A DNA stretch of 64,000 nt from Yuukianura sp. NJ FZ-2021 (taxonomy: Eukaryota). The translations under genes and the position numbers were made by a program. The stretch is from the NCBI GenBank assembly GCA_046563655.1, contig CM102287.1, positions 5,828,001 through 5,892,000 on the forward strand, read 5' to 3'. This document shows positions 11,066 through 40,100 of this stretch, piece after piece (the first letter of the stretch is position 1; each line of letters starts with the position of its first letter). Under the pieces are notes generated by a model. It did not search any database. It saw nothing but the letters and a program-made list of their open reading frames with translations, and was not told where the DNA came from.

Positions 11066-11324
11066 AGAAGAAGATAAGAGGAGTCCGGTCCGCGGTATCG
11101 TTGTAACTGTGAGTGATTGCGCTAAGGGTACTCTGGATCAAACACAATTTTTTTCCAGTCTCGAGTAATATATAGTAATACATTAATTTCCTATGATTCG
11201 GCAGGAGTAAGGCAGAGGTGGTACGTGTTAATACTCCATATCCCATCCCGTATCCCGTTCAATGCTTTGCGCCGCGATGTTGCCGTTTCATTTTGCTATA
11301 GGGGAGTAGGAGGGGGATGTGGGA

Positions 11325-11580
11325 TATCCCATATCCCACCCCATATCCCATATCCCATCCCATATCCCATCCCATATCCCATCCCATATCCCATCCCATA
11401 TCCCATCCCATATCCCATCCCATATCCCATCCCATATCCCATCCCATATCCCATATCCCATCCCATATCCCATATCCCATCCCATATCCCATCCCATATC
11501 CCATCCCATATCCCATCCCATATCCCATCCCATATCCCATCCCATATCCCATCCCATATCCCATCCCATATCCCATCCCC
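11325..11580 (+). repeat. Tandem array (ATCCCATATCCC)n in the left TIR, about 20 units with a few 7-bp variants
   Basis: Read directly. It produces the spurious IPYP/HIPS/SHPI ORFs. Confidence 0.95.
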
Positions 11581-11630
11581 AAAAAATTCCCTATATAAGG
11601 AGCCGCGGAGCTCAGTTTCGGTGACTTACC
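11581..11630 (+). promoter_or_regulatory. Putative TATA-containing promoter block at the inner end of the left TIR (identical inverted copy at about 13731-13780)
   Basis: AAAAAATTCCCTATATAAGGAGCCGCGGAGCTCAGTTTCGGTGACTTACC contains TATATAA and an Inr-like TCAGTT. It ends about 45-55 nt before the ATG of each internal ORF. TATA-to-Inr spacing is shorter than canonical. Confidence 0.55.
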
Positions 11631-11674
11631 CGTTCATTAGGGACGGGAAAAGACCTGCACTGGGGAATAGGGGG

Positions 11675-12706
11675 ATGGAGGCATCAAGGATGCCAGCGCT
11701 TGCGCTTACTGCTGAGCAAACAACGGCCCTTTTAAGGGCCAACCCATTCGGTCTCATGACCTTTGCGAGGGTGGTTAGAAACCCCGCAGAAGCGTTCAGT
11801 TTTGCCGTCCACACGGGTTTAATTAATATTAAAAACCCTCCAACATGCTCGTGTGGACGGACAAAATGCCTCGCCTCACGCCCAGGCGCCAGGTATGAAT
11901 GGTTTTGCCGGAAGGAACCAGGTGTTGAATGGTGCAGAATTCGAGTGGGTTTGCAGGTCAACACCTGGTTCCACGGGGCGAAAATACCTGTCCTGACGGT
12001 CCTGGAGTTGACGCTTCACTGGTTTTTTCAGGTACCGGTGACGGCAGCGGCTGGCCAGCTTGGCGTTTCTAAAGAATGCGCCATTGACTGGTACGCCTAC
12101 TGCCGTCAAATATGTTTCAGCATCGTTTCCAGGCTCGATATCTGCATCGGCGGGCCTGGACTCGTTGTTGAAATAGATGAAAGCCACTTGTGGAACCGCA
12201 AATACCACCGAGGAAGAGCCCTTGCCAACGAACAACTCTGGGTTTTTGGTGGTATTTGTCGAGAAACCAAGGAGGCTTTCATCCAGCTGGTACCTGATAG
12301 AACCACCAAGACGTTGGACCCCATCATCCAACGAAAAATTGCGGCCGGTACTCATATCATGAGTGACGGTGCGCGAGTCTACGAAAACCTTCATCTACCG
12401 TCTCGGGGTGGTTACACTCACAACCAGGTGAACCACTCCGAACATTACGTTGATCCCACAGACTCAAATATTCATACCAACAGCATCGAGAGTCTGTGGA
12501 ATCAACTTAAAAAAAAGGTGAAGGGATTCGTAGACGATGACCACATCGTCCTCTACATCGCCGAATATTTGTACCGGCGGCAATTTTTAAACGTCCACAG
12601 TGACGCTGAACGAAGGACCCAGGGAATCCAATTTGAAATATTTCTCAATCACATTCGAGAAGTATTCCCTGGGCCCTTCCAAGAAGGTTTATTGATGGAC
12701 GTTTAA
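11675..12706 (+). CDS. Merlin/IS1595-family DDE transposase, 343 aa (true start most likely MEASRMP at 11675)
   Basis: N-terminal zinc ribbon (CSCG...WFC...WC). Catalytic motifs VVEIDESHL, IMSDG and HTNSIESLW, plus VNHS and YIAEYLYRR, typical of ISXO2/IS1595-like transposases. No stops. Confidence 0.93.
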   Translation: MEASRMPALALTAEQTTALLRANPFGLMTFARVVRNPAEAFSFAVHTGLINIKNPPTCSCGRTKCLASRPGARYEWFCRKEPGVEWCRIRVGLQVNTWFHGAKIPVLTVLELTLHWFFQVPVTAAAGQLGVSKECAIDWYAYCRQICFSIVSRLDICIGGPGLVVEIDESHLWNRKYHRGRALANEQLWVFGGICRETKEAFIQLVPDRTTKTLDPIIQRKIAAGTHIMSDGARVYENLHLPSRGGYTHNQVNHSEHYVDPTDSNIHTNSIESLWNQLKKKVKGFVDDDHIVLYIAEYLYRRQFLNVHSDAERRTQGIQFEIFLNHIREVFPGPFQEGLLMDV

Positions 12707-13206
12707 ACGAAATTTAAAAAGTAAAACAAAAAAACATAAAAAAAACATAAAAAAAAACAAAAAAACCAAAAAAAAAAACAAAAAACAAAAAAACAAAAAA
12801 AAAACAAGAAAAAACAAAAAAAAAAACAAGAAAAAACAAAAAAAAAGAAAAAAAACAAAACAAAAAACAAAACAAAAAAAAACAAAAGAAAACAAAAAAA
12901 AACAATAAAAACACAAAAACGGTGTGTATAGCTTCCCGCGCCGAAGGCGCGGTGTTAGGTTTGGTTAAAGTGCGCAATACAGATTACATCCCGGGGCATT
13001 TTTTGTTTTTTTTTGTTTTTTTTAATTTTTTTTAGTTTTTTTTTTTGTTTTTTTTTGTTTTTTTTTTTGTTTTTTTTTTGTTTTTTTTTGTTTTTTTTGT
13101 TTTTCTTTGTTTTTCTTTGTTTTTTTTTGTTTTTTTTTTGTTTTTTTGTTTTTTTGTTTTTTTTTGTTTTTTTTGTTTTTTCCTTGTTTTTTTTTGTTTT
13201 TTTTTA
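12707..13206. repeat. Inverted pair of low-complexity tracts: A-rich (AnC)n at 12707-12919 and T-rich (TnG)n at 12999-13206, around an 80-bp core
   Basis: Read directly. The core contains the hairpin CCGCGCC-GAA-GGCGCGG (12936-12952). Confidence 0.9.
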
Positions 13207-13213
13207 CTGTTTA

Positions 13214-13678
13214 CTAACTCTTGTGAATTTTTTTCAGGTGCTTCCCAAGGTTGTCAGGCCATCTACCGTCAAACGTGGCGACACATTTGGGGCATTTGAG
13301 CCGCTCCAAGGGCGGGTCATGTTGTGCCCTGACATGGGCATACTTTTTTTTGTAGGTTGGGAACTCCAACCTACAATGCGGGCAAGGGAAAACCTTTGCC
13401 TTGGCAGTGGTGGTGGCATTTGGCGCCGGGACAACGGGGGGACTGGGAGGAGGGACTTCCTCCTCTTCGCCCACGGCGAAATACCCGGCTTCCACCGTCA
13501 CCCACTTCCCCACTTCCTTCTCTTCCCCCCCTTCGCCACATTGCGGGCACAGGAAATTTAGGGGTGGGGTGTGGGCGACGATGCAGAGAGGGTGAGCGAG
13601 GTGGCCTTCGCAACCCTCCCGTTTCAGCCGGGCAATCGCTCCAGCAATAGGTTGGAGACAACCAGCGCAGCTCGGCAT
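13214..13678 (-). CDS. Transposon-borne RING-H2 plus two C2H2 zinc finger protein, 154 aa
   Basis: CAGC-x15-CEGHLAHPLC-x11-CPQC fits C3H2C3 RING-H2 spacing. An acidic/Pro linker follows, then FPCPHCRLEFPTYKKKYAHVRAQH and LKCPKCVATFDGRWPDNLGKHLKKIH (C2H2). ATG at 13678. Confidence 0.85.
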   Translation of the reverse strand: MPSCAGCLQPIAGAIARLKREGCEGHLAHPLCIVAHTPPLNFLCPQCGEGGEEKEVGKWVTVEAGYFAVGEEEEVPPPSPPVVPAPNATTTAKAKVFPCPHCRLEFPTYKKKYAHVRAQHDPPLERLKCPKCVATFDGRWPDNLGKHLKKIHKS

Positions 13679-13780
13679 TTTTTTTTGGGGGCCTACCAAG
13701 AAAACGGTCTTTTCCTTTCTCTAATAGAAAGGTAAGTCACCGAAACTGAGCTCCGCGGCTCCTTATATAGGGAATTTTTT

Positions 13781-14097
13781 GGGGATGGGATATGGGATGG
13801 GATATGGGATGGGATATGGGATGGGATATGGGATGGGATATGGGATGGGATATGGGATGGGATATGGGATGGGATATGGGATGGGATATGGGATGGGATA
13901 TGGGATGGGATATGGGATGGGATATGGGATGGGATATGGGATGGGATATGGGATGGGATATGGGATGGGATATGGGATGGGATATGGGATGGGATATGGG
14001 ATGGGATATGGGATGGGATATGGGATGGGATATGGGATGGGATATGGGATGGGATATGGGATGGGATATGGGATATGGGGTGGGATATGGGATATCC
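13781..14097 (-). repeat. Tandem array (GGGATGGGATAT)n in the right TIR, about 24 units
   Basis: Read directly. Inverted counterpart of 11325-11580. Confidence 0.95.
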
Positions 14098-14250
14098 CAC
14101 ATCCCCCTCCTACTCCCCTATAGCAAAATGAAACGGCAACATCGCGGCGCAAAGCATTGAACGGGATACGGGATGGGATATGGAGTATTAACACGTACCA
14201 CCTCTGCCTTACTCCACCCTATGATTCTTTTCAAGCTGTTTGCCAACAAG

Positions 14251-15830
14251 ATGTCAAATACAGAAGGTCCTGGAGAAACTCCAGGTGAACCTGCACGCGT
14301 ACCTCAGAAGAAGCCCCGACAAATGAGAACAGAACTGGATCGTTTACTGATGGACGAAGGTACTGTAAATATGCTGTGCGATCGTGATGCAACTGTAAAC
14401 GCCGGAACAGCTAAGCAAAATTCGAATGGCAATGGCGTCAATAACAAGAAAAAGAAATTAGAAGAACTTGACCGCAGACGATTGCAAGTTCTTAGCACGG
14501 TACGAAATCAGAGTAGCGACACAGTTAAAAAATTACGTGAAAAGAAGAAACCAGAGGTCAAGCCAGCCAGACGAAGGTCCTCGGAAGAAGGATACGCAAA
14601 TGGAAATGTCCCAAAAGGGTCCCCTGTGGCTTGGTGCAAGGGACGTCGTGCCAGTCTTCTTGCAACTTTGAAGGAAGATCGAAATGGAACTGGAGATACA
14701 AATGGAAAAGGAGCAGAATCCATAGAAGGTAGTTCTAGCGTGACGCTAGCGCTGACGCGAGCGAATTTTAATTTTTCGTTTTTCGAATCCGTACAGGCCC
14801 GCCAGAACAGAAGCAAATTTTGTCAAATGTGACAAGGGATGGTTTGGGTCATGTCACAATTACGTTTCAGTCGAATGGAAGACACACTATAGATTTAAAG
14901 GTATTTAATTTCCGTATTCGCCAACCTCACTTAATTAACTACATTAACTTTTTTTATCGTTTTGCACAGGCCTTAAGGGACCTTACTAGTACATTACAAG
15001 CACTGGGATCTGACCCAAGAGTCAAAGTCATTTTAGTTTCCAGTTCTGGAAACTCTAAATTCTGCAACGGTCTTGACCTCCGAGAACTGATTGGCACAAC
15101 TGATGACAAGAAGCAAGCGGCCGATGACATTGCTGAAGCTATCAAGTAAAGTGAAATGCTTTCTGATGTTAATCATGAAGTGTCACCATTTGATCTAGTA
15201 ATTGGAATTAACGTAATCGTACTTTGTTTGCTTTAGCTTGTACCTCACCACATTAGCTGAGCTGCCTAAACTCACGATAATCTCACTCCACTCCTCGGTC
15301 TCAAATTTATTTGTGACAAGCTTGCCGTTATTCGATCTCATTTACGCTTCTGACAAATCCACTTTCCGGTGCAACTATTTAACAACTCTAAACCAAGTTC
15401 CAGAAGGCGGGACGCTTCTATACGAAAAGCTTGGACCAGTTGCCTTCAATAATCTCGTTTATGGAGGGAAGGTACTCACTGCTAACGAAGCGAAGGAGTG
15501 CGGTCTGGTGAGTGAAGTACTTTGGCCAGCACGTTACCAAGAGGAACTTGTTAACCGAGTCAACAGTTTCCTAGGACGCAAAGTAAGTCCAATTTTACAT
15601 CCTATAATTAAGTAAATTTAACAATAACATCCGAAAGTACGTACAGCGTTCTTCTTACTTTGCAGTTGTCGAATAGTTTCCCTATGACGAAGTCCTCAAT
15701 TCCACGTCTCAAATGCCTTTCGGAACAGAATTTGAAAGAAGCAAAGAAGGATCTAGTAAACTCTTGGATCAGTGAAGATTTTCAAAATGCTGCAAGGAAC
15801 TTCGTCAATTCTCGTGTAATTCGAAACTAA
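14251..15830 (+). CDS. Chromodomain-Y-like (CDYL-type) crotonase/enoyl-CoA hydratase-fold protein; exons about 14251-14728, 14797-14900, 14971-15145, 15237-15582, 15666-15830
   Basis: Crotonase-like segments KVILVSSSGNSKFCNGLDL, LPLFDLIYASDKSTF, QVPEGG and LTANEAKECGLVSEVLWP, joined by GT-AG introns. No chromodomain is visible. Confidence 0.8.
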
Positions 15831-25185: not shown

Positions 25186-28100
25186 TTACTTGGGTCTCCA
25201 GGAGAGATCGCCCATTCCGTGGAAGCTTTTCTTCATGGAGGAATTGTCCGCCCACTTGGAGTTTAAGCACTCATCATCATCTTCCGCCTCCGCCAGTCTC
25301 TGTTCAAAATAGAAAAAATACAATTTTAGAATTTTGAAACAATTCAACTTGCAGTTTGGAAGCGTTTGAATGACAAGCCAAGCTCCAAGCCAGTAGTTAG
25401 CGGTCAGCTCACACACAAAACAGCAAAGCGACAAGCACATTTTCATTCTCAAATACGCTAAAATTACAATAGTATCCTAGGATAGCAGGTAGGATAACTT
25501 AGGATAATAAGTTAACTATCCTAGGATAAGCGAACCACTTCTATGAATAAAACATAAATAAATCACTCTGTACTTCAACATCGTACGGTCATATTTCTCT
25601 TCTCAAACATCACTCTTCTCATGAAGCATTGCGGCTTCAGTGCAGCGCTGCAAATTTCAGCGTAACAAATACCTAGTATTTACAAATTCAAAAACATTCT
25701 AGCGTTCGGAAAAAGTACGATTGTATAAAAAGTTCAAAAGAGGAGATAAGTTTTGAAAAGTTAGTTTAGTAATTACAGTAGCAGATACTCCATTTTCAGG
25801 CCTTTAGCACGAGAAACTTATAAACTTAGGAAAGCATCGAAGCGTTTCGTTAGTTCAGAGTTTGTTTTTGTTTTGCTTTTTCTTTTAAAAATAGGTGGTT
25901 CAAGCGATTCCGTTTTAGATACACCAAAAATAAATCCAAAAGTTTCATGTTTCACAACATGCAAGCAGCATCTCACACCAGACAAAAGGGGTCAAATCTT
26001 AACCTTTGAACTTCCTATATGAAATGCTTGTCCAATTCAAGAACCCATATTGCCCCACCCTGGGTTTCAAATTAAGCGGTGGTGGTGATCGTTTAACACG
26101 AAAACAGCGGTGGTGATCCCTTAAACATTTAAACCACAGCGCAATAGACGGTATATAAGTGGTGGTGACATAATTTGTGAAGTGGTGGAGCAGCGGCGGC
26201 AGTGAGAAACGCAACGGGACACAAAACCTACCATGATTATTAGCCACATTGGAGGAGGTCTCACTGTCCTCCTCTCTTACTTGCGCAATAGGCCTAAACA
26301 TAACCAAAAAATCAAATTAACCCAACCCGCAGGTCATTTCCGTAGGTCAATTTGAAAAATAACTCAAAATTTTGCGGTGTTAAAACATAAAGTGTCGTAG
26401 GTTAGTTACTTTCTTTGTGGAATTTCAATTGTTGGGAAGGAACTAATCCTCGCAGGTAAATCGGTTTCAATTGGTTCCAGAAATCTCTCCCCTGTCAAAT
26501 CACAGGGGTGGGACAGGGACGTCTCTTCATTTACACAACGCACATCCACCACCAGGCTTCTAGTTTTTACAAAAACAAAAACAAGTCAGTTACGTTTTGG
26601 AAGGAATACCACAAAGCACCACTAAAACTCAGAAAACTCAGAAATCTAAAAAAAAACATTAGAAATGAGAGCACATTGACAAAAAATTCTAAATATCCCG
26701 CATCCGGTCATGACCCCCTACCTAGCAAGACAAAACACTTTTTAGCACAAAGGCAGGAGGAGAAGATGCAGAAAGCTTAACTTGGAAACATGTTTGTTAG
26801 GTTAATGCCTTGCCAAGGTTAGGTTAATGTTAGGATATCGCTGGTTAGGATAACGTAGGACTGCTAGAAGCTAGTGAAGGGCGTGGTGATTACCAGTGCG
26901 AGGGAGTGACTTGGTTTTGGTCCCAGGACTTCCCTCAGCCGCGACTCTATCGAGTCAAAGCGAAAAGGAAGAAGGCTCTGCTGGAGGCGAACGTTTTTTT
27001 TTAAGTTTTGCTCCGTTTGAACAAGAAGTGGGTTTTCAGTTTTCACATTATTGAGTCACAAGCGCCTGAATCTCTAGTAAATCATCCTTCACTTAAATTT
27101 TCTTGGGCCCCTAAAAATCCGTCTCATCGAAGCCCCCGAGCAGAGTTGGCTCCCCCCTAAAAATAGACATGAAAACACTCTCATCTTCACACAAAATACA
27201 AAAGAGAAAGCAGAGTGTAGGGGTTTATGGGGATTTCAACCACTTTTCCCTCAACGATCAACTTATTCAACAAAGGCTTTCTCAGAAATGATTCTCAAAA
27301 AATAACAAAATGCACGTCATGGCTTAAGTAAACAAGAAACTTCAAAAAGACCACAAAAAGGTTTCGTAAAATGTTTCAAATTGCTGGTTTTTCAAAACTG
27401 TACTAAATTTCTCAAAGAAAGTAAGATTTTGTAATAAAAGCTTCGCTTCAGTTCATTCTCTCTCGTTAGCTAAAGTTGTGACATATCCAAACGGTATGAA
27501 ATTTCACACCGCGAAAAGTAACATAAAACGGGAAACCAAAATCGTATCAAATCCGCAACCAAAATCCCCCCACAACGCAATCGAGTTTCTTTTCTCTTTC
27601 AGCGAGAAAGTTCAGTTTCTTTGAAAGAAAATGAAACATGACACTCCACGTTTCTTTGATCCTAATTAATCTAAATCTCCGGAAATACGAAAATCTCCTT
27701 TGACAGGAATCCGGGAGAACTCAAAACCAAAGTTTCCGATATCCAAACAAATATCAAAAGATTAGTGTTTACTCAAGAGAGAAAGTAACACCACGGGAAG
27801 CCACAACCACTACTAAAAGTTGTGGAAAAATCCGACAAACGAAAACGAAAATGGAACACACTGGGAACAAATGGAGTGAAAGTGAACCGAGCTCTTGAAA
27901 ATTCTGAGAACACTTTCTTTTAAAGTGTGTTTGGATTTTAACTTTTTCTGAAACAGTTTAATTAAGAATAGTTAATTACTCGTGTTCATTTCTCAAGAAA
28001 TAATGAAAATTCATGTAATTACATGTAATTCATGTAAATACATAATGTAATTGAGTTGTTGTTGAGTTACCCTTTATTCTTGACAGGAGGGTTATTAGTT

Positions 28101-31100
28101 GGTCCATTCCGCTCGCGCTCGGGGGCTGTGCTGTTCCTGATCCGATTGTCTTCTGCTGAGTTTCTGCTGATGATAGGCGTAAGATCGTTCATCTCTAGAT
28201 TATTCGGTGGATGGGGCCTGGAATTGGGGAGTAGTTTTTCCGTAAGGGCGTTGAGCGTCCGAGAGGAGGACTTCCGCAGTGCTCTGGCTTTTTCATCCAG
28301 CGTTGAGAGCGAAGTCTGCGGTGGTTCTGGAGACGGACTCGGTCCGTTGTTATTTGTCGTCGACGGAACGGGGACTTGGCGGGAGCTACTGGCAGTTGAG
28401 CTTGTATTGTAAATCTTGAAGTAAGCAAATACGAGATAGATGACAGAGACGATGAAACATGGAATTGGGATGGCCAAGGACAAGGCGAGTTCCAGAATCA
28501 CGTTGTTCATGTTAAAGGAAGTCACGACCAGCTTTGGTTTGACTTTGGAGTAATAACAATCAAACGTCTTGCCCTGCTGAGAATATTTCGCGACAAAGAT
28601 GGAGCAGTTCAGTGACGGCGGATATCCGCAACCTTTAACATTGGGATAGAGGTGGGCATCCGGAAACCAACCTTCACTGTGTACGCCTGGTGACACTGTT
28701 GAGCTAGTTCCGCGTACAGCCTCTGCACTGCTTTTGTGACGACTCTTTTTATGTCCATTAAAAGGCTCACTCACTCCACCATGATTGTAGTTGTAGTAGG
28801 TGGGATTGCTGTTTGGAGAAGTGTGATGCTTCGGCTTGAGGCTGAGTTGTGTCGGAAGTGGAGGCGGAGGTGAGTCAGACGGCGTGGCGATTTTGTAGCT
28901 AACAAATATCTGAGTGCAGTTGTAGATATCCTTGGTGCACCCTACAACAGTACAAGTCACAATTAGGATCAAATCACCTCCTTAGTATTAAAAGTTACTA
29001 TTAGATGCATTACCCTCTCTGCAGGAAGTCCAACTTTTCGTGCACACAGGCCCAGTGAGGTACTCAACGCGGTCTGTCCGGCAAAGCGCCGGTTCTGGGT
29101 CAAACTCATTAAAGATGGTAGTGAAGGCCGGGTCAATAACAAAAGGCACGAGGAAGAGGAATGAGAAGAGGCTGAAGACGGCGAGGAGGATGAAGAAGGC
29201 CGTCGTGTAGAAGAGACACTTTTCACGCAGTGTCGGCGGGATGATCGGTGGTGGATCCGGTGGCTTAGGCTCCTCCTCCAACGTCTCTTCAACTCCGCCC
29301 AGCGCTCCACCGTCACCCTTATCACCCGACGGGGAGTCACCAAAGGCGGCACTGCCGTAGTTACACTCAACCTCTTCCAGCTCAATCGTCTCATTGTCCA
29401 CCCCCGCAAACTGAAGCTCCAGCTCAAGTTTTGACCCGCCTGAGTCGGAAGAGCTCGGCGTCTCCGCCTCCTCAATCTCGGCATGGTGCGAGGAGCTGAG
29501 TGCCGACGACGGTGGTGGGATTTTAGGAAGACCGAACGCCCCACTGCTTCCGCTACTTGCGGTCAGCAGCCCAGGGCCACTTGCGTCGTAATTGTTGGTC
29601 CGTGGAGTTTCTTTGCCTGACGGAGTTGCGGTGAGGAGTAGAGCTGTTGATCCCAGTCTCTCCTCCTCCTCACCCGGCATTATTCGCTCAGAGCGACGTC
29701 TGGGGGAGCATTCCTTGGCGGGGGTCTCCGCAAGACTCTCGCCCCACCCCCAAAGGACCCCCTGCACCTAGTCCAAGTCCCATCACACGACCCCACCACC
29801 TAAGCCACTTCACATTGCGAGCCACTAGAGGGGTTCAAAGGTCACACTTTCACTGAGCCACACAAGGCCTTGGAGTCGGGGGTGGCCGGGATTCCATGGG
29901 AATAACAAACACTTTCACTCCACCATTCGCACAGTTCTGGAACCTTGTGGGGCACAGGGGAGTTGGAATTGGATAAAGGAGAACCGCACCCACTGCTGTA
30001 ACCCACTCGTTGTCTCTGCTTCCTGCGAAAAGGGCTCCTCTGTCCCTTAAACTACCCCATGACTAGCCCTTGAACACTCAAAAGTGGAACCACGACATGA
30101 CCTGGTCGGGACAAAGGGCACGGAAACTTCGCCATTTTGGGATTGCAGTGAGTGAGTGAAGGTAGAAACTCAGAGTGCGGTGGTATGGAGCAGGATGCAC
30201 CACTTCTTCGATTCAAGCATGTATGGCCTAGCACTACTTTCACTACTATAACTCCACTAGCACTAGTCTATAACCTCTCCTTTCTCCATAGGCTTTTAGC
30301 CTTAGACTTTCTCCACGCTACACTTTTAGTCGGTCTGCTTTCACTACGGAAAAGGCTCCGTTCGGGTTCCCTCTCCGGCCTAGGTTAGGTTAGTACTACT
30401 ACTATGACGAAAACTAAACTTTCCTTGGACTTTCTCTGCCTCTTAGACCCATCTCCATCCACTTTAGTCAACTACGGCAGTAAGCACCAGGCTTTCCAAG
30501 GCTTCTCATAGCCCGTGGACAAACCCAGTACCCATTGATCCGACTGTGACTCACGACAACCCCCGACCGTCTTTTCCGACGTTCGGTCCAGCACAATTCC
30601 ACCGCCCACCCTCCGCCGCTGATCCACATTCCTCCAATTTCTCCAACACAAGCCTTCAAGGCCTCTCTGCCAAAAGTTAGGTTTGGCGCTTGAAGGAATC
30701 GCTGGATTCTGCTGAATCCAAAGGCACAAAACCTCTAGGCCCAAAAGCCACTTTCTTCTCCAAAAGCAAGCACCTAACCGAACTTTTAAAAAGTCCGAAT
30801 TCCTATATTGCCATTTCCCACTCCTCCTGAATGGGGCTCTTAATTTATTCACCTCTCTCTCTCACTTCCTCCCAGACACACACACCCACAATTACACGCA
30901 ACACTCCAGTCTGCATTGCGGAAGAGAGCCTAAGACTTTCACTCTGACTGACCTCAATGTCCTTCTTTCTCCAACCTAATCTAAACTTAACGCTTTTGAT
31001 TTCTAACTTAACCAAAAGAGAAACTTGACCCCCGCGTTCAATCATAATCGCGTATCAAACAATCACTTAATTCCTCCCCTCTACTCCAATCACATTTTAC

Positions 31101-34100: not shown

Positions 34101-37100
34101 GTGGGAGTGGTTGGGATTATCCATGACACAAAACTTTGTAACTACCTACTTGAGAAGGTGTTTCAGAAGTAGAGGATCATAGAACTACAGCAGTAGTACA
34201 CAAGAGTCTAAACGTAACTTTGTATGAGGTTCCACTTTCACCGCTTTCACTTTCTCTAAACCCAAAAACAGTGCCAACTTGAAGGCTCCAACTCCATCTG
34301 CCAACTTTCCCAGGAAAATCGTAGTTTAGAACATAGGGGATCCAGAAACCAGGGGAACCTAGTCAGTAGGAGACTTTCCCTTTCACTGGGGCAGTCGATC
34401 AATTCACTGTCTTGCCTTAGTCTCCAAGTCCCTCTGACCCCAGTGAAGTGACCCCGAAGTGCCCCCGGGCGGTTCAAACAGAGGTCACGACCTGCTTTAT
34501 GCACAGTACGACTGACTAACACGGACTCGCTTTCGGTTTCGTCCACGGCTCAACCAGGTAAGCTTCCCAGTTAACCTTATTCTAAAACTTACTATCCTAC
34601 TTACACTATTTTTCAAAAACATTTCACTCTCAAAACAAAACCAAAATATTTTTGACGTAACATGACATTTGGTAGCATGTAGAAGTAGATCATCGTTTTT
34701 AAATAAAAGTAGTCAGCGACATCCACAATTTTTGTTTTTTTGAAACCATTTCCAAAAATACAAAGAGACAAAGAGTAGGATAGCACAAAAATTTCGCAAT
34801 TCACTCGGCGAGTCATCCGAATTAACCCGAACTCAAAGAGAAAGTGGTTCGACTCAAGAATTTCTCCGGAACTTTCCCATTGATCTCACTTCCCTCGGCA
34901 GAAATCATACCAAAAAACAAACTCCGGCGACGTCCGCATTTGGCAAGCCCTATCCGCATCATCACTATCATCCTTCATAGTACTACTAAATAGTTTACCT
35001 AAAGTTCCAATTCCAAAAGAACCATTAAACGCCATTACACAGAGATACAATCAGTCATTATGTTCCTCCAATCCAACTTTTTTTTGTAACTCTCGTATTG
35101 AAACCTAACATAAAACGAACGTCTAAAAAGTTTGCAACGTAGTGAATTTTGTTAAGGTGAAGGGAGTGTTGGGGTTTTTCAGCGCAGCATAACTTTCTCT
35201 TCTCTGCTGAAAACTAGTGAAAGTGGGCTTTGCTTCTGCGTCTCTCCAAGTGACCTCCATTCCAAGAACTAAAAATCGATTCCTTTGCAGAAAGTGACAA
35301 GACTGCAAAAATAGCACATACTCTCAACACTCCCATCCCCATCGCAGTACTTCTACAAACTCAAATTGAAATTTTTCCAAAGTATAACAGGTCATGTGAC
35401 CACTTCAGTGAAAACGTACAGTTGGGAACTCCAAGAAACAAAGTTAACACAAAATTAGGCCAACTTTTCACAGAATTTACCTTGAAATTTCACCATGAAC
35501 ACGCCTTTTGAGAAAAGAATTTGCTTCACAGTATGTATCTGTCAGATGACAGCAGTACTAAGCTGCGTCTCAATCGTCTACCTCACCGTAGCTATATACA
35601 AACCGGCCTACTTAACTCTCACTTCCGGATTTCTAGAAGAGCCAGTCATGTGCACTACCATTGCCATGGAGACGGACAAAGACTGTGACACCCCCCGTGG
35701 TCCTGGAGATCCAATCAAATGGAAAGGCTGGAACTCATGTTCCGAATGGTGCTTGTCCAAGTCCATTAGCACTTGCCCTAGAATCATGGTTGACGTAAGG
35801 TACAACGGCACGGGAATTCGACTCGAAGGATGCGAAGCAATTGACAAGAAGGTTTGTTCTGGAATTGACCATGAAAAGCCACCACTCCAATGTGTCGGCG
35901 GAGGATGCAGCGGGATTCATGGACTCTTCAATTGTACAACTCCGGTTAGAACGCCTGGTACATCGTCAGATCAAAGTTTCGGCGCCAAATGTATCGACCT
36001 AACGACCATTCTGGAGTGCAATATAACCGATGCCGCGGAACCGGTTAGCTGTGCAACGAAAACTGGCTGCCTCAACCTTAATGGAACCTACACATGTAAC
36101 ATCGGGCAATGTTCTAAACTCATAACACCTTATCATTGTCAACATAAGTGCGATGGAATCCAAACTGGCAACAAAACGGTAATTATTCGAGAAGGAGACA
36201 AGATATTCTCAGCCCAATGTCAGCGCATAGTCAACCGGAGCAGTGAAGAAGAAATGTGGCCATTGAATCACAAAACGATGGATCCACAACTACATGTCGA
36301 AGTACCACCAACCCTACTCATATTCTGCACCAACCTGTTCGTGTCACCAAAGGACAATACAAGCTACATAGGGTACGACTGCTTCAACGGTACCTTACTC
36401 GAACCTAACCATTTTGGCAACAGTACAGAAATTGTCAAACTGACGCAAACGCATATTGATTTGGTTGATCTCGGAACGAGTCGAGACGGGATAGGTTTGG
36501 TTGGTCCAACAGAAGAAGGTTTGCTGATCTGGAACAATACTCGGCTGTTCATCAACTACGAAAGCTGTGTCAACACGCTCATCCTCAACGAATGTGACAA
36601 GTTTTACGCTGAATATGGAAAAGATGGATCCGATTACGGAAGTCGAGCAAGGTATCAATGCTTCTACTCTCCAGATGACAATGACTTTGCATCTCTCCGA
36701 TTCAGTAGAATGAGAACCATGATGGAACTGCTGTTGGCAACGACTATTCCAATTGGCTTAGCCATTGTATCCTGTTTCACACTTGTCATCTGCTCCAGAA
36801 TTATACACGTTGGCGACGACTCACACTTTTACTTCCAGTGTTGCGGAGATGACACCAAGAAAATCCTGGAGAAAGATCACGTCGAAGCCATGGCACTTTG
36901 AACCCACTTTCACCAAATCCTATTTAGCAAATATTTTCTACATCTTCAGTATCAATTACTTGGATTTTAAAACATTTTAGGCCCCTTTTGCTATCTCCAG
37001 ATAGACAATGACCCTGAAACTGAAACACCCATACTAGTTATAAATTTCTAAATTCAAAATTCACCCGCCATTTTTAAATTTTCAATTCATAGTCACACTA

Positions 37101-40100
37101 AAAGATGGTGGGAGCCCTTGGAGTAGTTGCAAACGCCGTTGGAACGAGTCGCAACCGACGTGATAGTAGAAACTCTCAAAATGAGGAGCCACCAACACGT
37201 CGTCCCACAATTTCAGAAATACTGGCCTCAAGACATGTACTGGCCGTGGGGGGAGGCGGCACTGGGAACAACTACCGGGACCGTGGCGGAACCGTGGATC
37301 CGCTCCTCCTCTCCCGTCAACCTTCAGAACCAGAGAAACTGACATTTAAGGAACAAGTCAAGTCATACGTTTCTCTGGCCCTGGGGATTCTAGCCAGTCT
37401 CTGCGTATTCGCTCTTTTGTTCCTCATTCCGCTAGTTGTAGAGCCTTCCATTTCAACGCTTCTAGCCGACTTTGATCCAGAACCAGCCACTTGCGTAGCT
37501 ATTAAATCCGAACTCCAAGTTGGACTCACAAGATGCGGCACTTTCAGCTCCTGTCGTGAAGGATGCACTACCACACCCTCACAGTGCTACCAAATTCGTG
37601 TCTCTTATAGAAAACCAAATACACTTCCGCCTACTAAACCCAATATAACATTACCTACCTCGGAATTGGGGGTAAGACTATGATTAATTCCTATTTTTAG
37701 TCAACCAAAGCACAAATTAAGTGGTTTAAATCAATTAATCGATTTTTACCAGGATGAATCACGATGGGATGAGTACGATACTGAACTTCTCATTAACGTC
37801 AAAGGATGTGGATACCCTCCACGCGTCAAGTGTGAAGAATTCGGAGTTGCCTTTGGGCAGGTAAGAAAGCATTACTTAAAAATGTGCTGCCAGCATAACT
37901 TAACCAAATCCTAACGTTTTCTGGAAAACGTTTAGCTAACGTTTGTACTTTTACAGGAAGGACGAACATTTAGTTGTTACTACAGTCGATCCAATCCTCG
38001 CCTGGTAGTGACAGACTACAACTGGGAAGAGACGGCCTTTCCCCTCCTACTGGCCCTTGGCCTCCCCACCATTCTATTCTCAATTTCCGTTGCCATTCTA
38101 TCTTCATGGTACTGTCCTAGTTGCGAAGAGAGAGGCAAAAACAAGCGTCCCTGCAGAAGTAGATACTCTGTTCCAAGACCAAAGCCCTCTGACCTCGTCG
38201 ATGACCCCGCTCAGCGCAGACGCAACAACAACCAGCCACAGAGGAACAAACCTACACCAGCAGAACCCATTCCAATTCACCCTCCAGAACCCGTGGCTCA
38301 TCAACCCCTACGAAGGAAACACTCCATCTACAATCCCAATTCACCGTCACTAGCCACAATTTCATCCGGAGACACGACTGTTTCCAGCATCAACTCCCTA
38401 GACGGGTAAGACTTTTTGGAAATTCAAATCCGAAATATGGTGACTGATTTTTGCCGCCCGATAGAACTTCGCACTTGAAGTTATTCTGATCTTGTCATGT
38501 GAATAGGAAATTTCCTAGTTGAATTCACAAAACAAAATTCAGTTCCCAAAAATTAGAAAATCTGGAAACTCAAACTAACTTTTTGTGACATTTCAGATGG
38601 CAGAGTCCGCCGTCTCCACCACCGCGATTCGACTCCAGAATGAATGCCTCGTCAAAGTCCAACCTGTCAACTCGGACACGCAAACTGTAACATGGACGTT
38701 ATGAGGTCATGAAAACAATAATTAAACCAATAAGCACAATTTATAGGGCAAGCAGCAACGAATTACGCAGAATTCACGTTCTTCCCCGTCGTTTCCTTTT
38801 TATGGAGATGAGCGTCACGCTCTCAAAACTTAAATTCTCAAAACTCTGTCCTTTAAAAAAACAAAATTTTAAAAACGTAACATCTCTGATATGCTGAATG
38901 AGTTTGATCTTAATTAATTGTGATATACTCATACTGGAAGGAAGAGAGTGTTTTGCTTTGTAAATAGATAGCAGCTACAACTAAAACGAGGCAACAACAG
39001 CCCAACCTATCATCATCACTCTTAGTTAATTACAATAACAATTTACCTGATGTTAAAAACCTTACTTTCACTTTACCTATTTAGAGAGAAACTTAATGAG
39101 TATCATTCTCAATGTCTACTGGCTTGGGCAGATGTGAATGAGCATAAAACGCAGCAAAAGCAAGCACACCAAATTATTGACTTAACTAATGTTGACAGTT
39201 TATGAAATTAATTAATGGAAAAATAAAAATGGGTTCACTACTTACCTTGGCTTCCTCTTGTTTTTGATGAGCAAAGAGCATGAGGGTTCGTTGATCTTCT
39301 TTGGAAAGGGCTGGTTCCCGTGCTGGAGCTCCGCTGCCTCTGGTCTGGATTTTGACAATTACTTTAGACTTTTCGTTTGATCCGATAAAATCTTTCAGTA
39401 GTTTTCCACGATGGAGCTCTTTCCCGCAAAACCAAAGTTCACCAGATCCAGGGGGAATGACCTACAAAATGGTTTGAAATTAACGTTTACGTTTGAACAC
39501 ATTCCAGACTTAAACTTGACAGCATACCGCAAGAGAATCCTGAGTTCCTGTCAAGTCTTCCTTATTTTCCAGTTCAAGACGAATAGGATCATGAGGAGGA
39601 AGATTCATCGGATACACGATCGTACATGCGCCGCGAAGAACGTTCATTTCCTCTTGAACCATCTTCAGTGTTAGACAAACGTTCTTGTCAACCAAATTCT
39701 GTTCAAAAATTTAAAAAAAATAGTATATAGTAATAAGTAAATAGAATTATTTTGGAATTTTATACGACTGCGTTACTAACGCAGTGCGTTAGTATCGTTG
39801 AAGTGAACTGACCTTAGATATTTCTCCCTTCACTTCTGAAATAGTGCGCGTAAGCATATCTCTCATCTTTTCGTTCGGTTGTCTTCCATTTCTACGGCCA
39901 ATGGGATCCCGGTTCATCGTGAATCCGCCGCTTGGAATGCAATTTTCGCCATGGGTGTCTACAAGTTTAAGTTCCTCTACTTGTTCATCAGTGAGACCCA
40001 ACATTTCGGGAGGAAGGAATGTTCCATATTTAGCCAATTCTTCCATTTCTGTTATCCAAACACACAAATTACATACATGTCAAATGAGTTTTAAATATTA

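What the first reader, a model, noticed from the sequence alone, without database searches (positions are those of the whole stretch)
13214..13678. Transposon-encoded candidate DNA-targeted E3 ligase (RING-H2 + 2 C2H2 fingers)
Seen: all eight RING-H2 ligands in canonical spacing plus two C2H2 fingers in 154 aa. Established: RING-H2 domains are usually E3 ubiquitin ligases and C2H2 fingers usually bind nucleic acid. Some plant Mutator-like VANDAL elements encode anti-silencing VANC proteins that bind element tandem repeats. Inference: the fingers may bind the element's own GGGATGGGATAT arrays and bring ubiquitination there, either to counter silencing or to control transposase turnover.
Basis: partly seen in the sequence, partly recalled or inferred. 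Interest (0 to 1): 0.85.

Follow-up and report, generated by a model that had tools for sequence, protein, structure and literature searches.

The report
Merlin transposon with zinc-finger accessory gene
A 3-kb cut-and-paste transposon of the Merlin kind in an arthropod genome carries, beside its transposase, a second real gene for a small four-zinc protein whose front half looks RING- or PHD-like and whose back half is a pair of classical zinc fingers, but nothing yet shows that it is a ubiquitin ligase.

Summary
Window 13214-13678 (-) is a 154-codon ORF with C-x2-C-x15-C-x2-H-x2-H-x2-C-x11-C-x2-C followed by two C-x2-C-x12-H-x4-H fingers. It lies inside a TIR-bounded element (11200-14219) that is a Merlin/IS1595-type DNA transposon.

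ORF2 is a real gene:
- One full-length relative (P0156) keeps all eight ligands at identical spacing, plus two fingers.
- A diverged second copy in the same sample changes mostly at synonymous sites and keeps the frame.

Pfam confirms the finger pair (zf-C2H2_4, zf-Di19).

The RING assignment is not established:
- Pfam finds no family in ORF2 residues 1-61, and zf-RING_2 scores only 11.3 bits (cut-off 27.3) on P0156.
- Two AlphaFold2 runs give pLDDT 47-53.
- The nearest solved sequences are ING-type PHD fingers (E 0.011). No RING chain appears at E <= 10.

My best reading is an element-encoded DNA- or chromatin-binding cofactor or regulator, functionally like TNPA of En/Spm. The cross-brace RING/PHD-like module would serve as a protein-contact surface. 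E3 ligase activity remains a minority possibility.

This is a new variant of a known kind, since Merlin elements are described as single-gene. Interest is moderate.

The parts
11192..11199 (.). Left target-site duplication TATGATTC (9 bp, CTATGATTC, if the element ends at 14218)
   Evidence: Same 8-10 nt at 14220-14227 directly outside the other end
11200..11655 (+). Left terminal inverted repeat. It starts GG and holds an outer unique part, the 12-nt array and an inner promoter-like part.
   Evidence: Inverted repeats I1 (263 nt, 98%) and I2 (201 nt, 95%); 24-nt core found exactly twice in the window, 0 expected
11345..11579 (-). Array of 19.4 copies of the 12-nt unit (ATCCCATATCCC as read on +; GGGATGGGATAT on -), 94% matches
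   Evidence: Tandem Repeats Finder; 19 exact units, none outside the two TIRs
11592..11617 (+). TATATAAGG and TCAGTT (TATA-like and initiator-like motifs) pointing inward, 58-83 nt before the transposase ATG
   Evidence: Identical copy in the right TIR. Promoter function is inferred and the motif names are recalled.
11675..12706 (+). Transposase, 343 aa, DDE_Tnp_IS1595 domain, intact
   Evidence: PF12762 E 9.4e-21, 74.8 bits; 305 relatives at E <= 0.001, best 59% identical, named ones from a springtail; D168, D231, E272 invariant in 24 sequences
12723..12919 (+). A-rich tract (about 20 units of AAAACAAAAA) directly after the transposase stop; AATAAA at 12904
12920..12998 (.). Central 79-nt G+C-rich spacer between the two convergent genes
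   Evidence: Its fold is no better than shuffles (z -0.48).
12999..13205 (-). T-rich tract on + (A-rich 3' region of ORF2), an inverted copy of 12716-12919 (77%); ATTAAA on the minus strand at 13026
13214..13678 (-). ORF2, 154 aa, the accessory gene under study
   Evidence: homologue P0156; diverged copy in the same sample
13538..13669 (-). ORF2 residues 4-47: eight-ligand C3H2C3 zinc module (RING/PHD-like, family unresolved)
   Evidence: All 8 ligands and all spacings are identical in P0156, against 11 of 54 identical non-ligand columns. See for the family tests.
13391..13537 (-). ORF2 residues 48-96: acidic and proline-rich linker, poorly conserved
   Evidence: pLDDT 31-40. In the second copy 87 nt of it are replaced by 66 other nt, a difference of 21 nt or 7 codons.
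13229..13390 (-). ORF2 residues 97-150: pair of C2H2 fingers (Di19-type double finger)
   Evidence: Pfam zf-C2H2_4 and zf-Di19 above cut-off; helices 109-119 and 141-152, block pLDDT up to 84; 55 of 56 phmmer hits match mainly this part
13706..14219 (-). Right terminal inverted repeat; ends ...CC on +
13744..13769 (-). Second copy of the TATA-like and TCAGTT motifs, pointing inward toward ORF2 (ATG 66-91 nt downstream)
13782..14074 (+). Array of 24.4 perfect copies of GGGATGGGATAT
   Evidence: 100% matches; 25 exact units
14220..14227 (.). Right target-site duplication TATGATTC

Best explanation
Window 11200-14219 is an intact, probably autonomous DNA transposon of the Merlin (IS1595/IS1016-like) superfamily in an arthropod genome. 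Unlike described Merlins it has two genes. The two long TIRs are near-identical up to about 20-28 nt before each start codon. Each holds the same TATA-like and initiator-like stretch pointing inward, so one promoter sequence would drive the transposase from the left end and ORF2 from the right end, convergently. ORF2 encodes a small protein that should bind four zinc ions. It has an N-terminal eight-ligand module of the cross-brace RING/PHD type, a disordered acidic and proline-rich linker, and a C-terminal pair of C2H2 fingers.

I propose that it is an element-specific cofactor or regulator. The finger pair would bind DNA of the element, and the 19 and 24 subterminal copies of GGGATGGGATAT are the obvious candidate sites. 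The N-terminal module would be a protein-contact surface for self-association, the transposase or chromatin proteins. In that way ORF2 would help assemble or regulate the transposition complex and/or the TIR promoters. TNPA does this at the subterminal repeats of En/Spm, and the Myb-like protein does it for PIF/Harbinger.

Shown: the element anatomy, the intact transposase, ORF2 as a conserved coding gene, and the C2H2 pair. Inferred: the promoters, DNA binding to the arrays, the fold and role of the N-terminal module, and any effect on transposition.
For: Element:
- PF12762 E 9.4e-21.
- TIR core occurs exactly twice in the window, and the TIRs are 95-98% complementary.
- Terminal GG/CC and an 8-9-bp duplication match the Merlin definition quoted in PMC8101967 (passages).
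- D168, D231 and E272 are invariant in 24 transposases.

ORF2 is a gene:
- phmmer against 1.84 billion representatives gave 56 hits. One of them, P0156 (169 aa), aligns over residues 3-136. It has all eight N-terminal ligands at identical spacing and two fingers.
- The non-ligand His/Cys residues (H36 in ORF2; H7 and C29 in P0156) are not conserved.
- A 560-nt contig of run X1 is a second copy at about 85% identity. In it, 87 nt of the linker are replaced by 66 nt, a difference of 21 nt, so the frame is kept.
- Only 16 of its 32 differences are listed one by one, and they fall in 14 codons. In the zinc module (codons 26-49), 7 codons change synonymously, including ligands H26 and C47, against 3 conservative replacements. 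With a synonymous-site share of 0.25, P(>=7 synonymous of 11 changes) is 0.007.
- Reading by eye the loose-end consensus of that contig, C7, H115 and H120 are kept in frame.

Fingers: Pfam above cut-off, and the best-modelled part of the AlphaFold2 model.

Shared promoter-like stretch in both TIRs.

A related Merlin (L003, transposase 51% identical) also has a convergent ORF of at least 217 aa behind its transposase, ending in two finger-like Cys/His motifs.

Accessory DNA-binding proteins that recognise subterminal repeats and are needed for transposition are established for En/Spm (PMC2613891, passages).
Against: - No experiment or RNA data. The one RNA run laid (X15) put nothing on ORF2, which is no proof of silence.
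- Only one full-length relative was found among 1.84 billion representatives, and its genomic context cannot be seen (1.1-kb contig).
- The likeness of the L003 ORF to ORF2 is weak: pairwise BLASTP E 0.011 over 24 aa, tblastn with P0156 E 0.088, no Pfam family. Its visible part has no Cys cluster at the front.
- Two fingers with a non-canonical 8-residue linker may bind DNA weakly, or may bind RNA or protein instead.
- The transposase has its own conserved Cys4 cluster (C58, C60, C78, C87) and may need no helper for end recognition.
- The selection test rests on one contig and on half of its differences.
- The copy number of the element in the genome is unknown: there is one copy in this window and no genome is held.
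Confidence: 0.5

Rival explanations
1. One reading: the N-terminal module is a true RING-H2 domain that recruits an E2. The fingers bring it to DNA (element ends or breaks), where it ubiquitinates the transposase, histones, repair factors or silencing factors.
For: - The C3H2C3 pattern with RING-H2-compatible spacing is conserved in both family members.
- zf-RING_2 is the only zinc family that Pfam reports for the P0156 N-terminus, and it spans the whole profile 2-44, though at E 0.45.
- ESM Atlas feature hits for both N-termini are mostly RING clusters (scores 0.82-0.91). Its structure search of the Atlas model of P0156 lists RING_5/C3HC4 clusters at TM 0.54-0.61. All are below the tool's bar, so they are leads only.
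- 8 of 17 Foldseek rows are RING chains, but all have E >= 2.8.
- There is a precedent for a transposon-derived RING-plus-zinc-finger module with ligase activity: the RAG1 N-terminal region binds four zinc atoms and is proposed to derive from the element N-RAG-TP (PMC8374863, passages).
- The RING + C2H2 ligases RNF114/125/138/166 have a similar order of domains (PMC4944129, passages).
Against: - No Pfam family at E <= 10 on ORF2 residues 1-61.
- 11.3 bits against a cut-off of 27.3 on P0156.
- 0 of 22 PDB rows at E <= 10 are RING chains, although many RINGs are solved.
- The models have low confidence.
- By my recollection, active RINGs contact the E2 through a hydrophobic residue just before ligand 2 and an aromatic or hydrophobic residue four after ligand 6. 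Here those positions are G/H and H/Q.
- There is no C2HC finger and no UIM, as the RNF125 family has.
Confidence: 0.2
2. The N-terminal module is a PHD-like reader of histone tails (or another chromatin-contact finger). ORF2 would tether or direct the element to particular chromatin, or shield it from silencing, with the fingers adding DNA contact.
For: A profile of the two N-termini finds ING1 PHD at E 0.011. Of the 22 rows at E <= 10, 12 are ING/YNG2/png2 PHD fingers and 2 more are ASH1L PHD chains. Ligands 2, 3, 5, 6, 7 and 8 of ORF2 align on PHD ligands 2, 4, 5, 6, 7 and 8. P0156 has Trp two residues before the conserved His, where I recall the ING cage Trp to be. PHD clusters score 0.82-0.83 in the Atlas search for P0156. 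3 of 17 Foldseek rows are PHD.
Against: - The E-values are marginal, and Cys-rich composition inflates such scores.
- The PHD pattern C4HC3 is not met: PHD ligand 3 has no partner (Leu/Val in the alignment), and His26 has no PHD counterpart.
- No Pfam PHD match at E <= 10.
- The cage Trp is Leu in ORF2.
Confidence: 0.12
3. ORF2 is a passenger. It is a host gene or gene fragment captured between the TIRs, still coding and perhaps useful to itself or the host, but with no role in transposition.
For: - Merlin elements are described with a single gene (PMC8101967, passages).
- An extra ORF seen in one Symbiodinium family was judged a chance product by those authors (same passages).
- The context of P0156 is unknown.
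- ORF2 is more G+C-rich (0.58) than the transposase (0.50).
Against: - ORF2 sits under a copy of the element's own TIR promoter-like stretch and has the same unusual A-rich tail as the transposase. The two genes therefore form a symmetrical designed-looking unit.
- A second diverged copy exists in the same sample with a synonymous-biased pattern.
- A related Merlin has a convergent finger-like ORF at the same place.
- No host-type family with this architecture was found.
Confidence: 0.13
4. ORF2 is not a gene: an open frame that arose by chance in G+C-rich transposon DNA.
For: There is no transcript evidence. The word-based search found no relative.
Against: Pfam finger matches above cut-off; the full-length homologue with identical ligand spacing; a frame-preserving, synonymous-biased second copy; 0 of 200,000 shuffles give the ligand pattern.
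Confidence: 0.03

Closest known systems
Merlin superfamily of eukaryotic DNA transposons (relatives of bacterial IS1016/IS1595)
   Same: DDE_Tnp_IS1595 transposase, terminal 5'-GG, 8-9-bp target duplication, TIR length within the reported 24-462 bp for the left arm, and internal tandem repeats, which PMC8101967 reports for several Merlin families (passages).
   Different: It has a second, convergent protein gene with zinc modules, a promoter-like stretch duplicated in both TIRs, and 200-nt A-rich tails behind both genes. The Merlin paper describes single-gene elements. My three full-text searches listed no paper that, by title or abstract, describes a Merlin accessory zinc-finger gene. I did not see the supplements of PMC8101967 or Repbase entries, and they might hold one.
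TNPA of En/Spm (CACTA) elements
   Same: It works alike in my proposal: a second element-encoded protein that recognises repeated subterminal motifs, is needed with the transposase, and also regulates the element (PMC2613891, passages).
   Different: There is no sequence relation and the superfamily differs. TNPA arises by alternative splicing of one transcription unit, whereas here there is a separate convergent gene. Binding is untested here.
Myb-like second protein of PIF/Harbinger, and VANC of VANDAL Mutator-like elements (recalled, not checked in a paper here)
   Same: Accessory DNA-binding proteins of cut-and-paste elements that bind element sequences. They recruit the transposase (Harbinger) or counter silencing (VANC).
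   Different: Other folds (Myb/SANT; VANC-specific) and other superfamilies. There is no RING/PHD-like module.
RAG1 N-terminal zinc-RING finger region and its proposed source element N-RAG-TP
   Same: A transposon-linked module that joins a RING to a further zinc finger, binds four zinc atoms, dimerises and has ubiquitin-ligase activity (PMC8374863, passages). ORF2 should also bind four zincs.
   Different: In RAG1 the module is fused to the recombinase, not a separate gene. I recall it as C3HC4, not C3H2C3. No RAG1 chain appeared among the 22 rows or the 60 rows shown.
RING-UIM ligases RNF114/RNF125/RNF138/RNF166
   Same: Small proteins with an N-terminal RING followed by C2H2 fingers (PMC4944129, passages). 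I recall that their finger pair is of the Di19 type that Pfam also reports for ORF2.
   Different: They have an extra C2HC finger that is essential for E2 binding, and a C-terminal UIM. ORF2 has neither and ends four residues after finger 2. RNF125 (5dka) appears only as an insignificant Foldseek row (E 6.1).
ING-family PHD fingers
   Same: Best sequence-profile likeness among solved structures (E 0.011-0.5). The shared motifs are a hydrophobic strand before a Cys, H-x2-C, and an aromatic-x-C-P-x-C ending.
   Different: The ligand pattern is C3H2C3, not C4HC3. One PHD ligand is missing and the cage residues are not conserved.

Membership tests
Merlin superfamily (the element) | Transposase with DDE_Tnp_IS1595 domain | tested here: met
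   PF12762 E 9.4e-21, 74.8 bits, cut-off 27, profile 6-152 of 153
Merlin superfamily (the element) | Conserved acidic catalytic residues | tested here: met
   D168, D231 and E272 are invariant in an alignment of 24 transposases. That these three are the catalytic triad is inferred.
Merlin superfamily (the element) | TIRs with terminal 5'-GG and 8- or 9-bp target-site duplication (criteria from PMC8101967) | tested here: met
   Left end GGCAGGAGTAAGG; right end reverse complement GGGTGGAGTAAGG; TATGATTC on both sides
Merlin superfamily (the element) | Single transposase gene | tested here: not met
   A second gene, ORF2, lies inside the TIRs. This is the point of difference, not a reason to exclude the element from the superfamily.
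RING-H2 domain (Pfam zf-RING_2) / RING E3 ligases | Eight ligands C3H2C3 with permitted spacing | tested here: met
   C4..C47 match the pattern; 0 of 200,000 shuffles do; identical spacing in P0156
RING-H2 domain (Pfam zf-RING_2) / RING E3 ligases | Profile match at or above the curated cut-off | tested here: not met
   ORF2 residues 1-61: 0 families at E <= 10. P0156 residues 1-64: zf-RING_2 11.3 bits against 27.3, E 0.45. 0 of 22 PDB rows are RING.
RING-H2 domain (Pfam zf-RING_2) / RING E3 ligases | Cross-brace fold with two zinc sites | tested here: inconclusive
   AlphaFold2 pLDDT is 44-54 over the module in the full-length model and 47 in the 62-residue model. Foldseek has no row below E 2.8. 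Atlas structure rows are under its bar.
RING-H2 domain (Pfam zf-RING_2) / RING E3 ligases | Hydrophobic E2-contact residues (before ligand 2; four after ligand 6); criterion recalled, not from a call | tested here: not met
   G6 and H36 in ORF2; H7 and Q37 in P0156. This depends on the RING register being the right one.
RING-H2 domain (Pfam zf-RING_2) / RING E3 ligases | E2-dependent ubiquitin transfer | not testable with these tools
   Needs a biochemical assay
PHD finger (ING type) | C4HC3 ligand pattern | tested here: not met
   In the HMMER alignment, PHD ligand 3 faces Leu18 (a non-ligand residue in P0156 too), and H26 has no PHD counterpart
PHD finger (ING type) | Significant profile similarity | tested here: inconclusive
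   Best E 0.011 (19 bits); 14 of 22 rows are PHD-bearing chains; no Pfam PHD match at E <= 10
C2H2 zinc fingers (Di19-type pair) | Profile match above the curated cut-off | tested here: met
   zf-C2H2_4 27.7/27 bits (32.2 on the C-half); zf-Di19 28.8/27.5 bits over residues 97-152, profile 3-53 of 54
C2H2 zinc fingers (Di19-type pair) | C-x2-4-C-x12-H-x3-5-H spacing and a helix carrying the two His | tested here: met
   Both fingers are C-x2-C-x12-H-x4-H. Helices 109-119 and 141-152 are modelled, with block pLDDT 84 and 79 for residues 101-120 and 60-65 for 131-150.
C2H2 zinc fingers (Di19-type pair) | Sequence-specific DNA binding | not testable with these tools
   Needs EMSA, SELEX or DAP-seq
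RING-UIM ligases (RNF114/125/138/166) | C2HC finger after the RING, and a C-terminal UIM (PMC4944129) | tested here: not met
   Between residues 48 and 96 there is no Cys or His, and the protein ends at residue 154, four residues after H150

The most novel reading that the evidence does not exclude
A lineage of Merlin transposons has acquired, as a separate co-expressed gene, a minimal DNA-guided ubiquitin (or SUMO-like) ligase. A divergent RING-H2 is tethered by two fingers to the 12-nt arrays in the element's own ends. It would act on the transposase, on histones or on break-repair factors at the excision site. This would parallel what the RING-plus-finger region does within RAG1, and so give a free-living example of the kind of module that RAG1 is thought to have taken from a transposon.
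Probability: 0.15. Interest if true: 0.8.

Novelty: new variant of a known kind. Interest (0 to 1): 0.5.

Why it matters
Merlin elements are treated as the simplest kind of eukaryotic cut-and-paste transposon, with one gene. A conserved second gene would show that this superfamily, like CACTA, PIF/Harbinger and Mutator, can depend on or profit from an accessory DNA- or chromatin-binding protein.

The symmetrical build makes a compact system for studying how a transposon couples end recognition with its own regulation. One promoter-bearing repeat is used twice, once for each gene, and the arrays of a 12-nt unit lie next to both promoters.

If the N-terminal module proved to be an active ligase, it would be a rare case of a transposon carrying its own ubiquitination device. 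It would then be a useful comparison for the RAG1 N-terminal region. The element also looks intact (TIRs 95-98% alike, perfect duplication, open transposase) and could be tested as a tool.

Tried and rejected
- Word-based protein search with ORF2: 25 candidates, none scored. With the two-sequence profile it found only P0156 itself.
- Metagenome scan with the ORF2 profile: 110 pattern matches, none confirmed.
- Viral contigs with the ORF2 profile: 52 pattern matches, none confirmed.
- Metagenome scan with the transposase: 2 loci, both too short or too distant to show a second gene.
- Genome-contig scan with the transposase profile: 12 loci. Only L003 was informative.
- Search of the three assemblies behind L003, L010 and L007 with the ORF2 profile: best E 0.55, nothing.
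- Earlier findings of this scan: three look-ups, nothing held.
- Own genome: none held.
- Rfam on the whole window: 0 matches.
- Fold of the central spacer: no better than shuffles.
- Sequencing runs: 17 of 20 listed runs held only 0.06-0.08 of the sampled words. These are probably the low-complexity A-rich words, so I draw nothing from them.
- RNA run X15 and DNA run X3 laid nothing on ORF2, which is no evidence of absence.
- Complex prediction of transposase with ORF2 and four zinc ions: verdict 'no answer', score 0.00 in both runs. This says nothing for or against binding.
- Foldseek on the low-confidence N-terminal model: no significant row. I ran no further search on a model of pLDDT 47.
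- I considered a LIM-like sequential two-finger reading because the central spacing is 2-2-2. I set it aside because the loops (15 and 11 residues) are shorter than I recall for LIM domains. One LIM chain (PINCH) appears, at E 1.9, and another LIM domain (skeletal muscle LIM protein 1) appears, at E 7.1.
- I considered deriving a DNA target from the finger 'recognition code'. I dropped it as unreliable for two non-canonical fingers.
Full report
**What is at the coordinates.** Window 13214-13678 on the minus strand is an open frame of 154 codons, and its ATG is the first in the stop-to-stop frame.
- Its first 47 residues carry C4-x2-C7-x15-C23-x2-H26-x2-H29-x2-C32-x11-C44-x2-C47.
- Residues 48-96 are acidic and proline-rich, with no Cys or His.
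- Residues 97-150 hold two C-x2-C-x12-H-x4-H fingers.
- The RING-H2 regular expression matches only this one of 783 open frames of at least 40 aa in the window. It matches none of 200,000 shuffles of residues 1-62.

**The surrounding element.**
- A 24-nt core occurs exactly twice in the window, at 11204 (+) and 14215 (-). It is part of inverted repeats that are 95-98% complementary over 456 nt on the left and 514 nt on the right.
- The arms start with GG. They are flanked by the same TATGATTC at 11192-11199 and 14220-14227.
- Each arm contains an array of the 12-nt unit GGGATGGGATAT: 19.4 copies at 94% on the left and 24.4 perfect copies on the right. The unit occurs nowhere else in the window.
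- Between the arms lie two convergent genes: a 343-aa protein at 11675-12706 (+) and ORF2.
- The 343-aa protein has the DDE_Tnp_IS1595 domain (E 9.4e-21). It has 305 relatives at E <= 0.001. The best are 50-59% identical, and the named ones come from a springtail. D168, D231 and E272 are invariant across 24 aligned transposases.
- A GG terminus, an 8-9-bp duplication and this transposase domain are the criteria for Merlin elements given in PMC8101967 (passages read). That paper also notes internal tandem repeats in several Merlin families.
- The element is therefore a Merlin of 3,020 bp and looks intact.
- The host is an arthropod by inference: the neighbouring genes include three TipE-family exons or ORFs.
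- The element is richer in G+C (0.50-0.58 in the genes) than its flanks (0.39).

**Symmetry of the element.** The two arms stay alike up to about 20 nt before the transposase ATG and 28 nt before the ORF2 ATG. Both contain the same TATATAAGG and TCAGTT motifs pointing inward. I recall these as TATA-box and arthropod initiator consensus; their function here is inferred. Each gene is followed directly by about 200 nt of (A8-10 C)n. The two tracts are inverted copies of each other (77%), separated by a 79-nt G+C-rich spacer, with AATAAA at 12904 and ATTAAA at 13026 on the minus strand. The simplest reading is one promoter sequence used twice, so that transposase and ORF2 are expressed together.

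**Is ORF2 a gene?** Three lines say yes.
1. Pfam places the finger pair above curated cut-offs: zf-C2H2_4 at 27.7 bits (32.2 bits on the C-terminal half alone) and zf-Di19 at 28.8 bits.
2. An exhaustive phmmer search of 1.84 billion representatives gave 56 hits. 55 of them match mainly the finger region. One, P0156 (169 aa, from a 1.1-kb metagenome contig), aligns over residues 3-136. It has the eight N-terminal ligands at exactly the same spacing and two fingers, at 27% identity overall. In the N-terminal alignment all 8 ligand columns are identical, against 11 of 54 other columns. The extra His/Cys residues of either protein are not shared.
3. Contigs of a DNA run from what is probably the source sample include a 560-nt record that is a second, diverged copy.
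   - It has 23 differences in 157 nt and 9 in 54 nt.
   - 87 nt of the linker are replaced by 66 other nt, a difference of 21, so the frame is kept.
   - Only 16 of its 32 differences are listed individually, and they fall in 14 codons.
   - Within the zinc module, 7 codons change synonymously, among them ligands H26 and C47. Three change conservatively (A35S, L40M, Q46E).
   - The four further changes lie in the linker.
   - With 25% synonymous sites, 7 or more synonymous changes out of 11 has P = 0.007.
   - Reading the loose ends of that contig by eye, C7, H115 and H120 are kept in frame.

The caveats are that this is one contig, only half of the differences are listed, and there is no RNA evidence.

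**A related element.** In a 1,990-nt contig binned with a bacterial MAG (L003), the transposase is 51% identical. A convergent frame of at least 217 aa, open at the contig end, follows it and ends in two finger-like Cys/His motifs. Its likeness to ORF2 is weak (pairwise E 0.011 over 24 aa; tblastn with P0156 E 0.088), and Pfam finds nothing in it. Its visible part has no N-terminal Cys cluster. I take it only as a hint that a convergent finger gene may be older than this one family.

**Is the N-terminal module a RING?** This could not be settled.
- Pfam reports no family at E <= 10 for ORF2 residues 1-61.
- For P0156 it reports zf-RING_2 over the whole profile, but at 11.3 bits against a cut-off of 27.3.
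- AlphaFold2 gave mean pLDDT 53 for the full protein, with only the finger helices reasonably confident. For residues 1-62 it gave 47.
- Foldseek with that poor model gave 17 rows, all at E >= 2.8. 8 were RING, 3 PHD, and the others were mixed.
- A profile of the two N-termini against all solved chains gave 22 rows at E <= 10. 12 were ING/YNG2/png2 PHD fingers (best E 0.011), 2 were ASH1L PHD chains, 1 was LIM, and none was RING.
- In that alignment six of the eight ligands fall on PHD ligands. PHD ligand 3 has no partner, and His26 has no PHD counterpart, so the C4HC3 definition is not met either.
- ESM Atlas look-ups for both N-termini list RING, Prok-RING, PHD and ZZ clusters at scores 0.81-0.91 and TM 0.52-0.61. 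All are below the tool's own bar.
- Every signal points to the cross-brace zinc-finger class, and none decides between its families.
- From memory, active RING ligases hold the E2 with a hydrophobic residue just before ligand 2 and another four residues after ligand 6. Here these are Gly/His and His/Gln.

For that reason I rate ligase activity at about 0.2.

**Most likely mechanism.** I commit to an accessory cofactor or regulator at confidence 0.5. The finger pair binds element DNA, with the arrays next to both promoters as the first candidates. The N-terminal module makes protein contacts. The effect would be on assembly of the ends with the transposase and/or on the TIR promoters. This is how TNPA works at the subterminal repeats of En/Spm, where both proteins are required and TNPA also regulates the element (PMC2613891, passages).

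Against a strict need for such a helper, the transposase has its own conserved Cys4 cluster (C58, C60, C78, C87). The rivals are a true DNA-guided E3 ligase (0.2), a PHD-like chromatin reader (0.12), a captured passenger gene (0.13) and a chance frame (0.03).

**Comparison with known systems.**
- The element passes the Merlin tests except 'single gene'.
- The finger pair is a member of the C2H2 class.
- The N-terminal module is not filed under RING or PHD.
- Architecturally the nearest cellular proteins are the RING-UIM ligases RNF114/125/138/166, which have a RING, a C2HC finger, two C2H2 fingers and a UIM (PMC4944129, passages). ORF2 lacks the C2HC finger and the UIM.
- The nearest transposon-linked precedent is the RAG1 N-terminal zinc-RING region. 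It binds four zinc atoms, dimerises, has ligase activity and is proposed to stem from the element N-RAG-TP (PMC8374863, passages).
- No sequence similarity to either was seen.

**Novelty.** Three full-text searches listed no paper that, by title or abstract, describes a Merlin with a zinc-finger accessory gene. The Merlin survey mentions only one extra ORF, which it regards as a chance product. I did not see that paper's supplements or Repbase, which could hold such a family. I rate this a new variant of a known kind, of moderate interest. The higher-interest ligase reading stays open at about 0.15-0.2.

Noticed in passing
window 12716-12919 and 12999-13202: Both element genes are followed at once by about 200 nt of (A8-10 C)n. 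The two tracts form an internal inverted repeat (77%) around a 79-nt G+C-rich spacer. Read-through from either side would give complementary RNA. I do not know whether these are encoded A-rich tails, terminators or a source of double-stranded RNA.
   Followed up: partly
window 13730-13737 (+) and 11624-11630 (-): A consensus 5' splice-site-like word lies at the inner edge of each TIR, facing outward (AGGTAAGT on the right, GGTAAGT on the left). It could splice outward-reading transcripts to host exons. It may also be chance: AGGTAAGT occurs 4 times in the window on both strands together.
   Followed up: no
window 14220-14832: The element sits 31 nt upstream of an ATG (14251) that opens a 193-aa host frame with no Pfam family. 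The insertion is thus in a likely 5' region of a host gene, with the right TIR's array facing it.
   Followed up: partly
window 11675-12706, residues 58-87 of the transposase: A Cys4 cluster (C58, C60, C78, C87, with W76) is invariant or nearly so in 24 Merlin-type transposases. The Merlin survey states that Merlin elements lack the Zn_Tnp_IS1595 finger, and Pfam reports none here. This may be an unrecognised N-terminal zinc module of this clade.
   Followed up: partly
window 28067-28981 (-), 35486-36901 (+), 37102-37683 (+): Three frames match the TipE family of sodium-channel auxiliary subunits (E 6e-44, 1.4e-6, 8e-22). This is a cluster of TipE-like genes and marks the host as an arthropod.
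   Followed up: partly
window 50687-53161 (-) and 54571-57909 (-): Two very long open frames (824 and 1112 aa) are rich in Pro and in Thr runs, like mucin-type or cuticle-associated proteins. I did not analyse them.
   Followed up: no
L003 1-1990: A eukaryote-type Merlin (transposase 51% identical to the window's) lies on a 2-kb contig filed in a Bacteroidota MAG. It is probably a mis-binned eukaryotic contig. It has its own convergent ORF of at least 217 aa with two finger-like motifs at the end.
   Followed up: partly
window 13200-13785, runs X1 and X2: In the contigs of the probable source sample, the transposase-side TIR junction contig has word depth 22.6. The two ORF2 versions have 13.9 and 10.3. 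The tool warns that depth is no copy number, so I note only that at least two ORF2 lineages coexist there.
   Followed up: no
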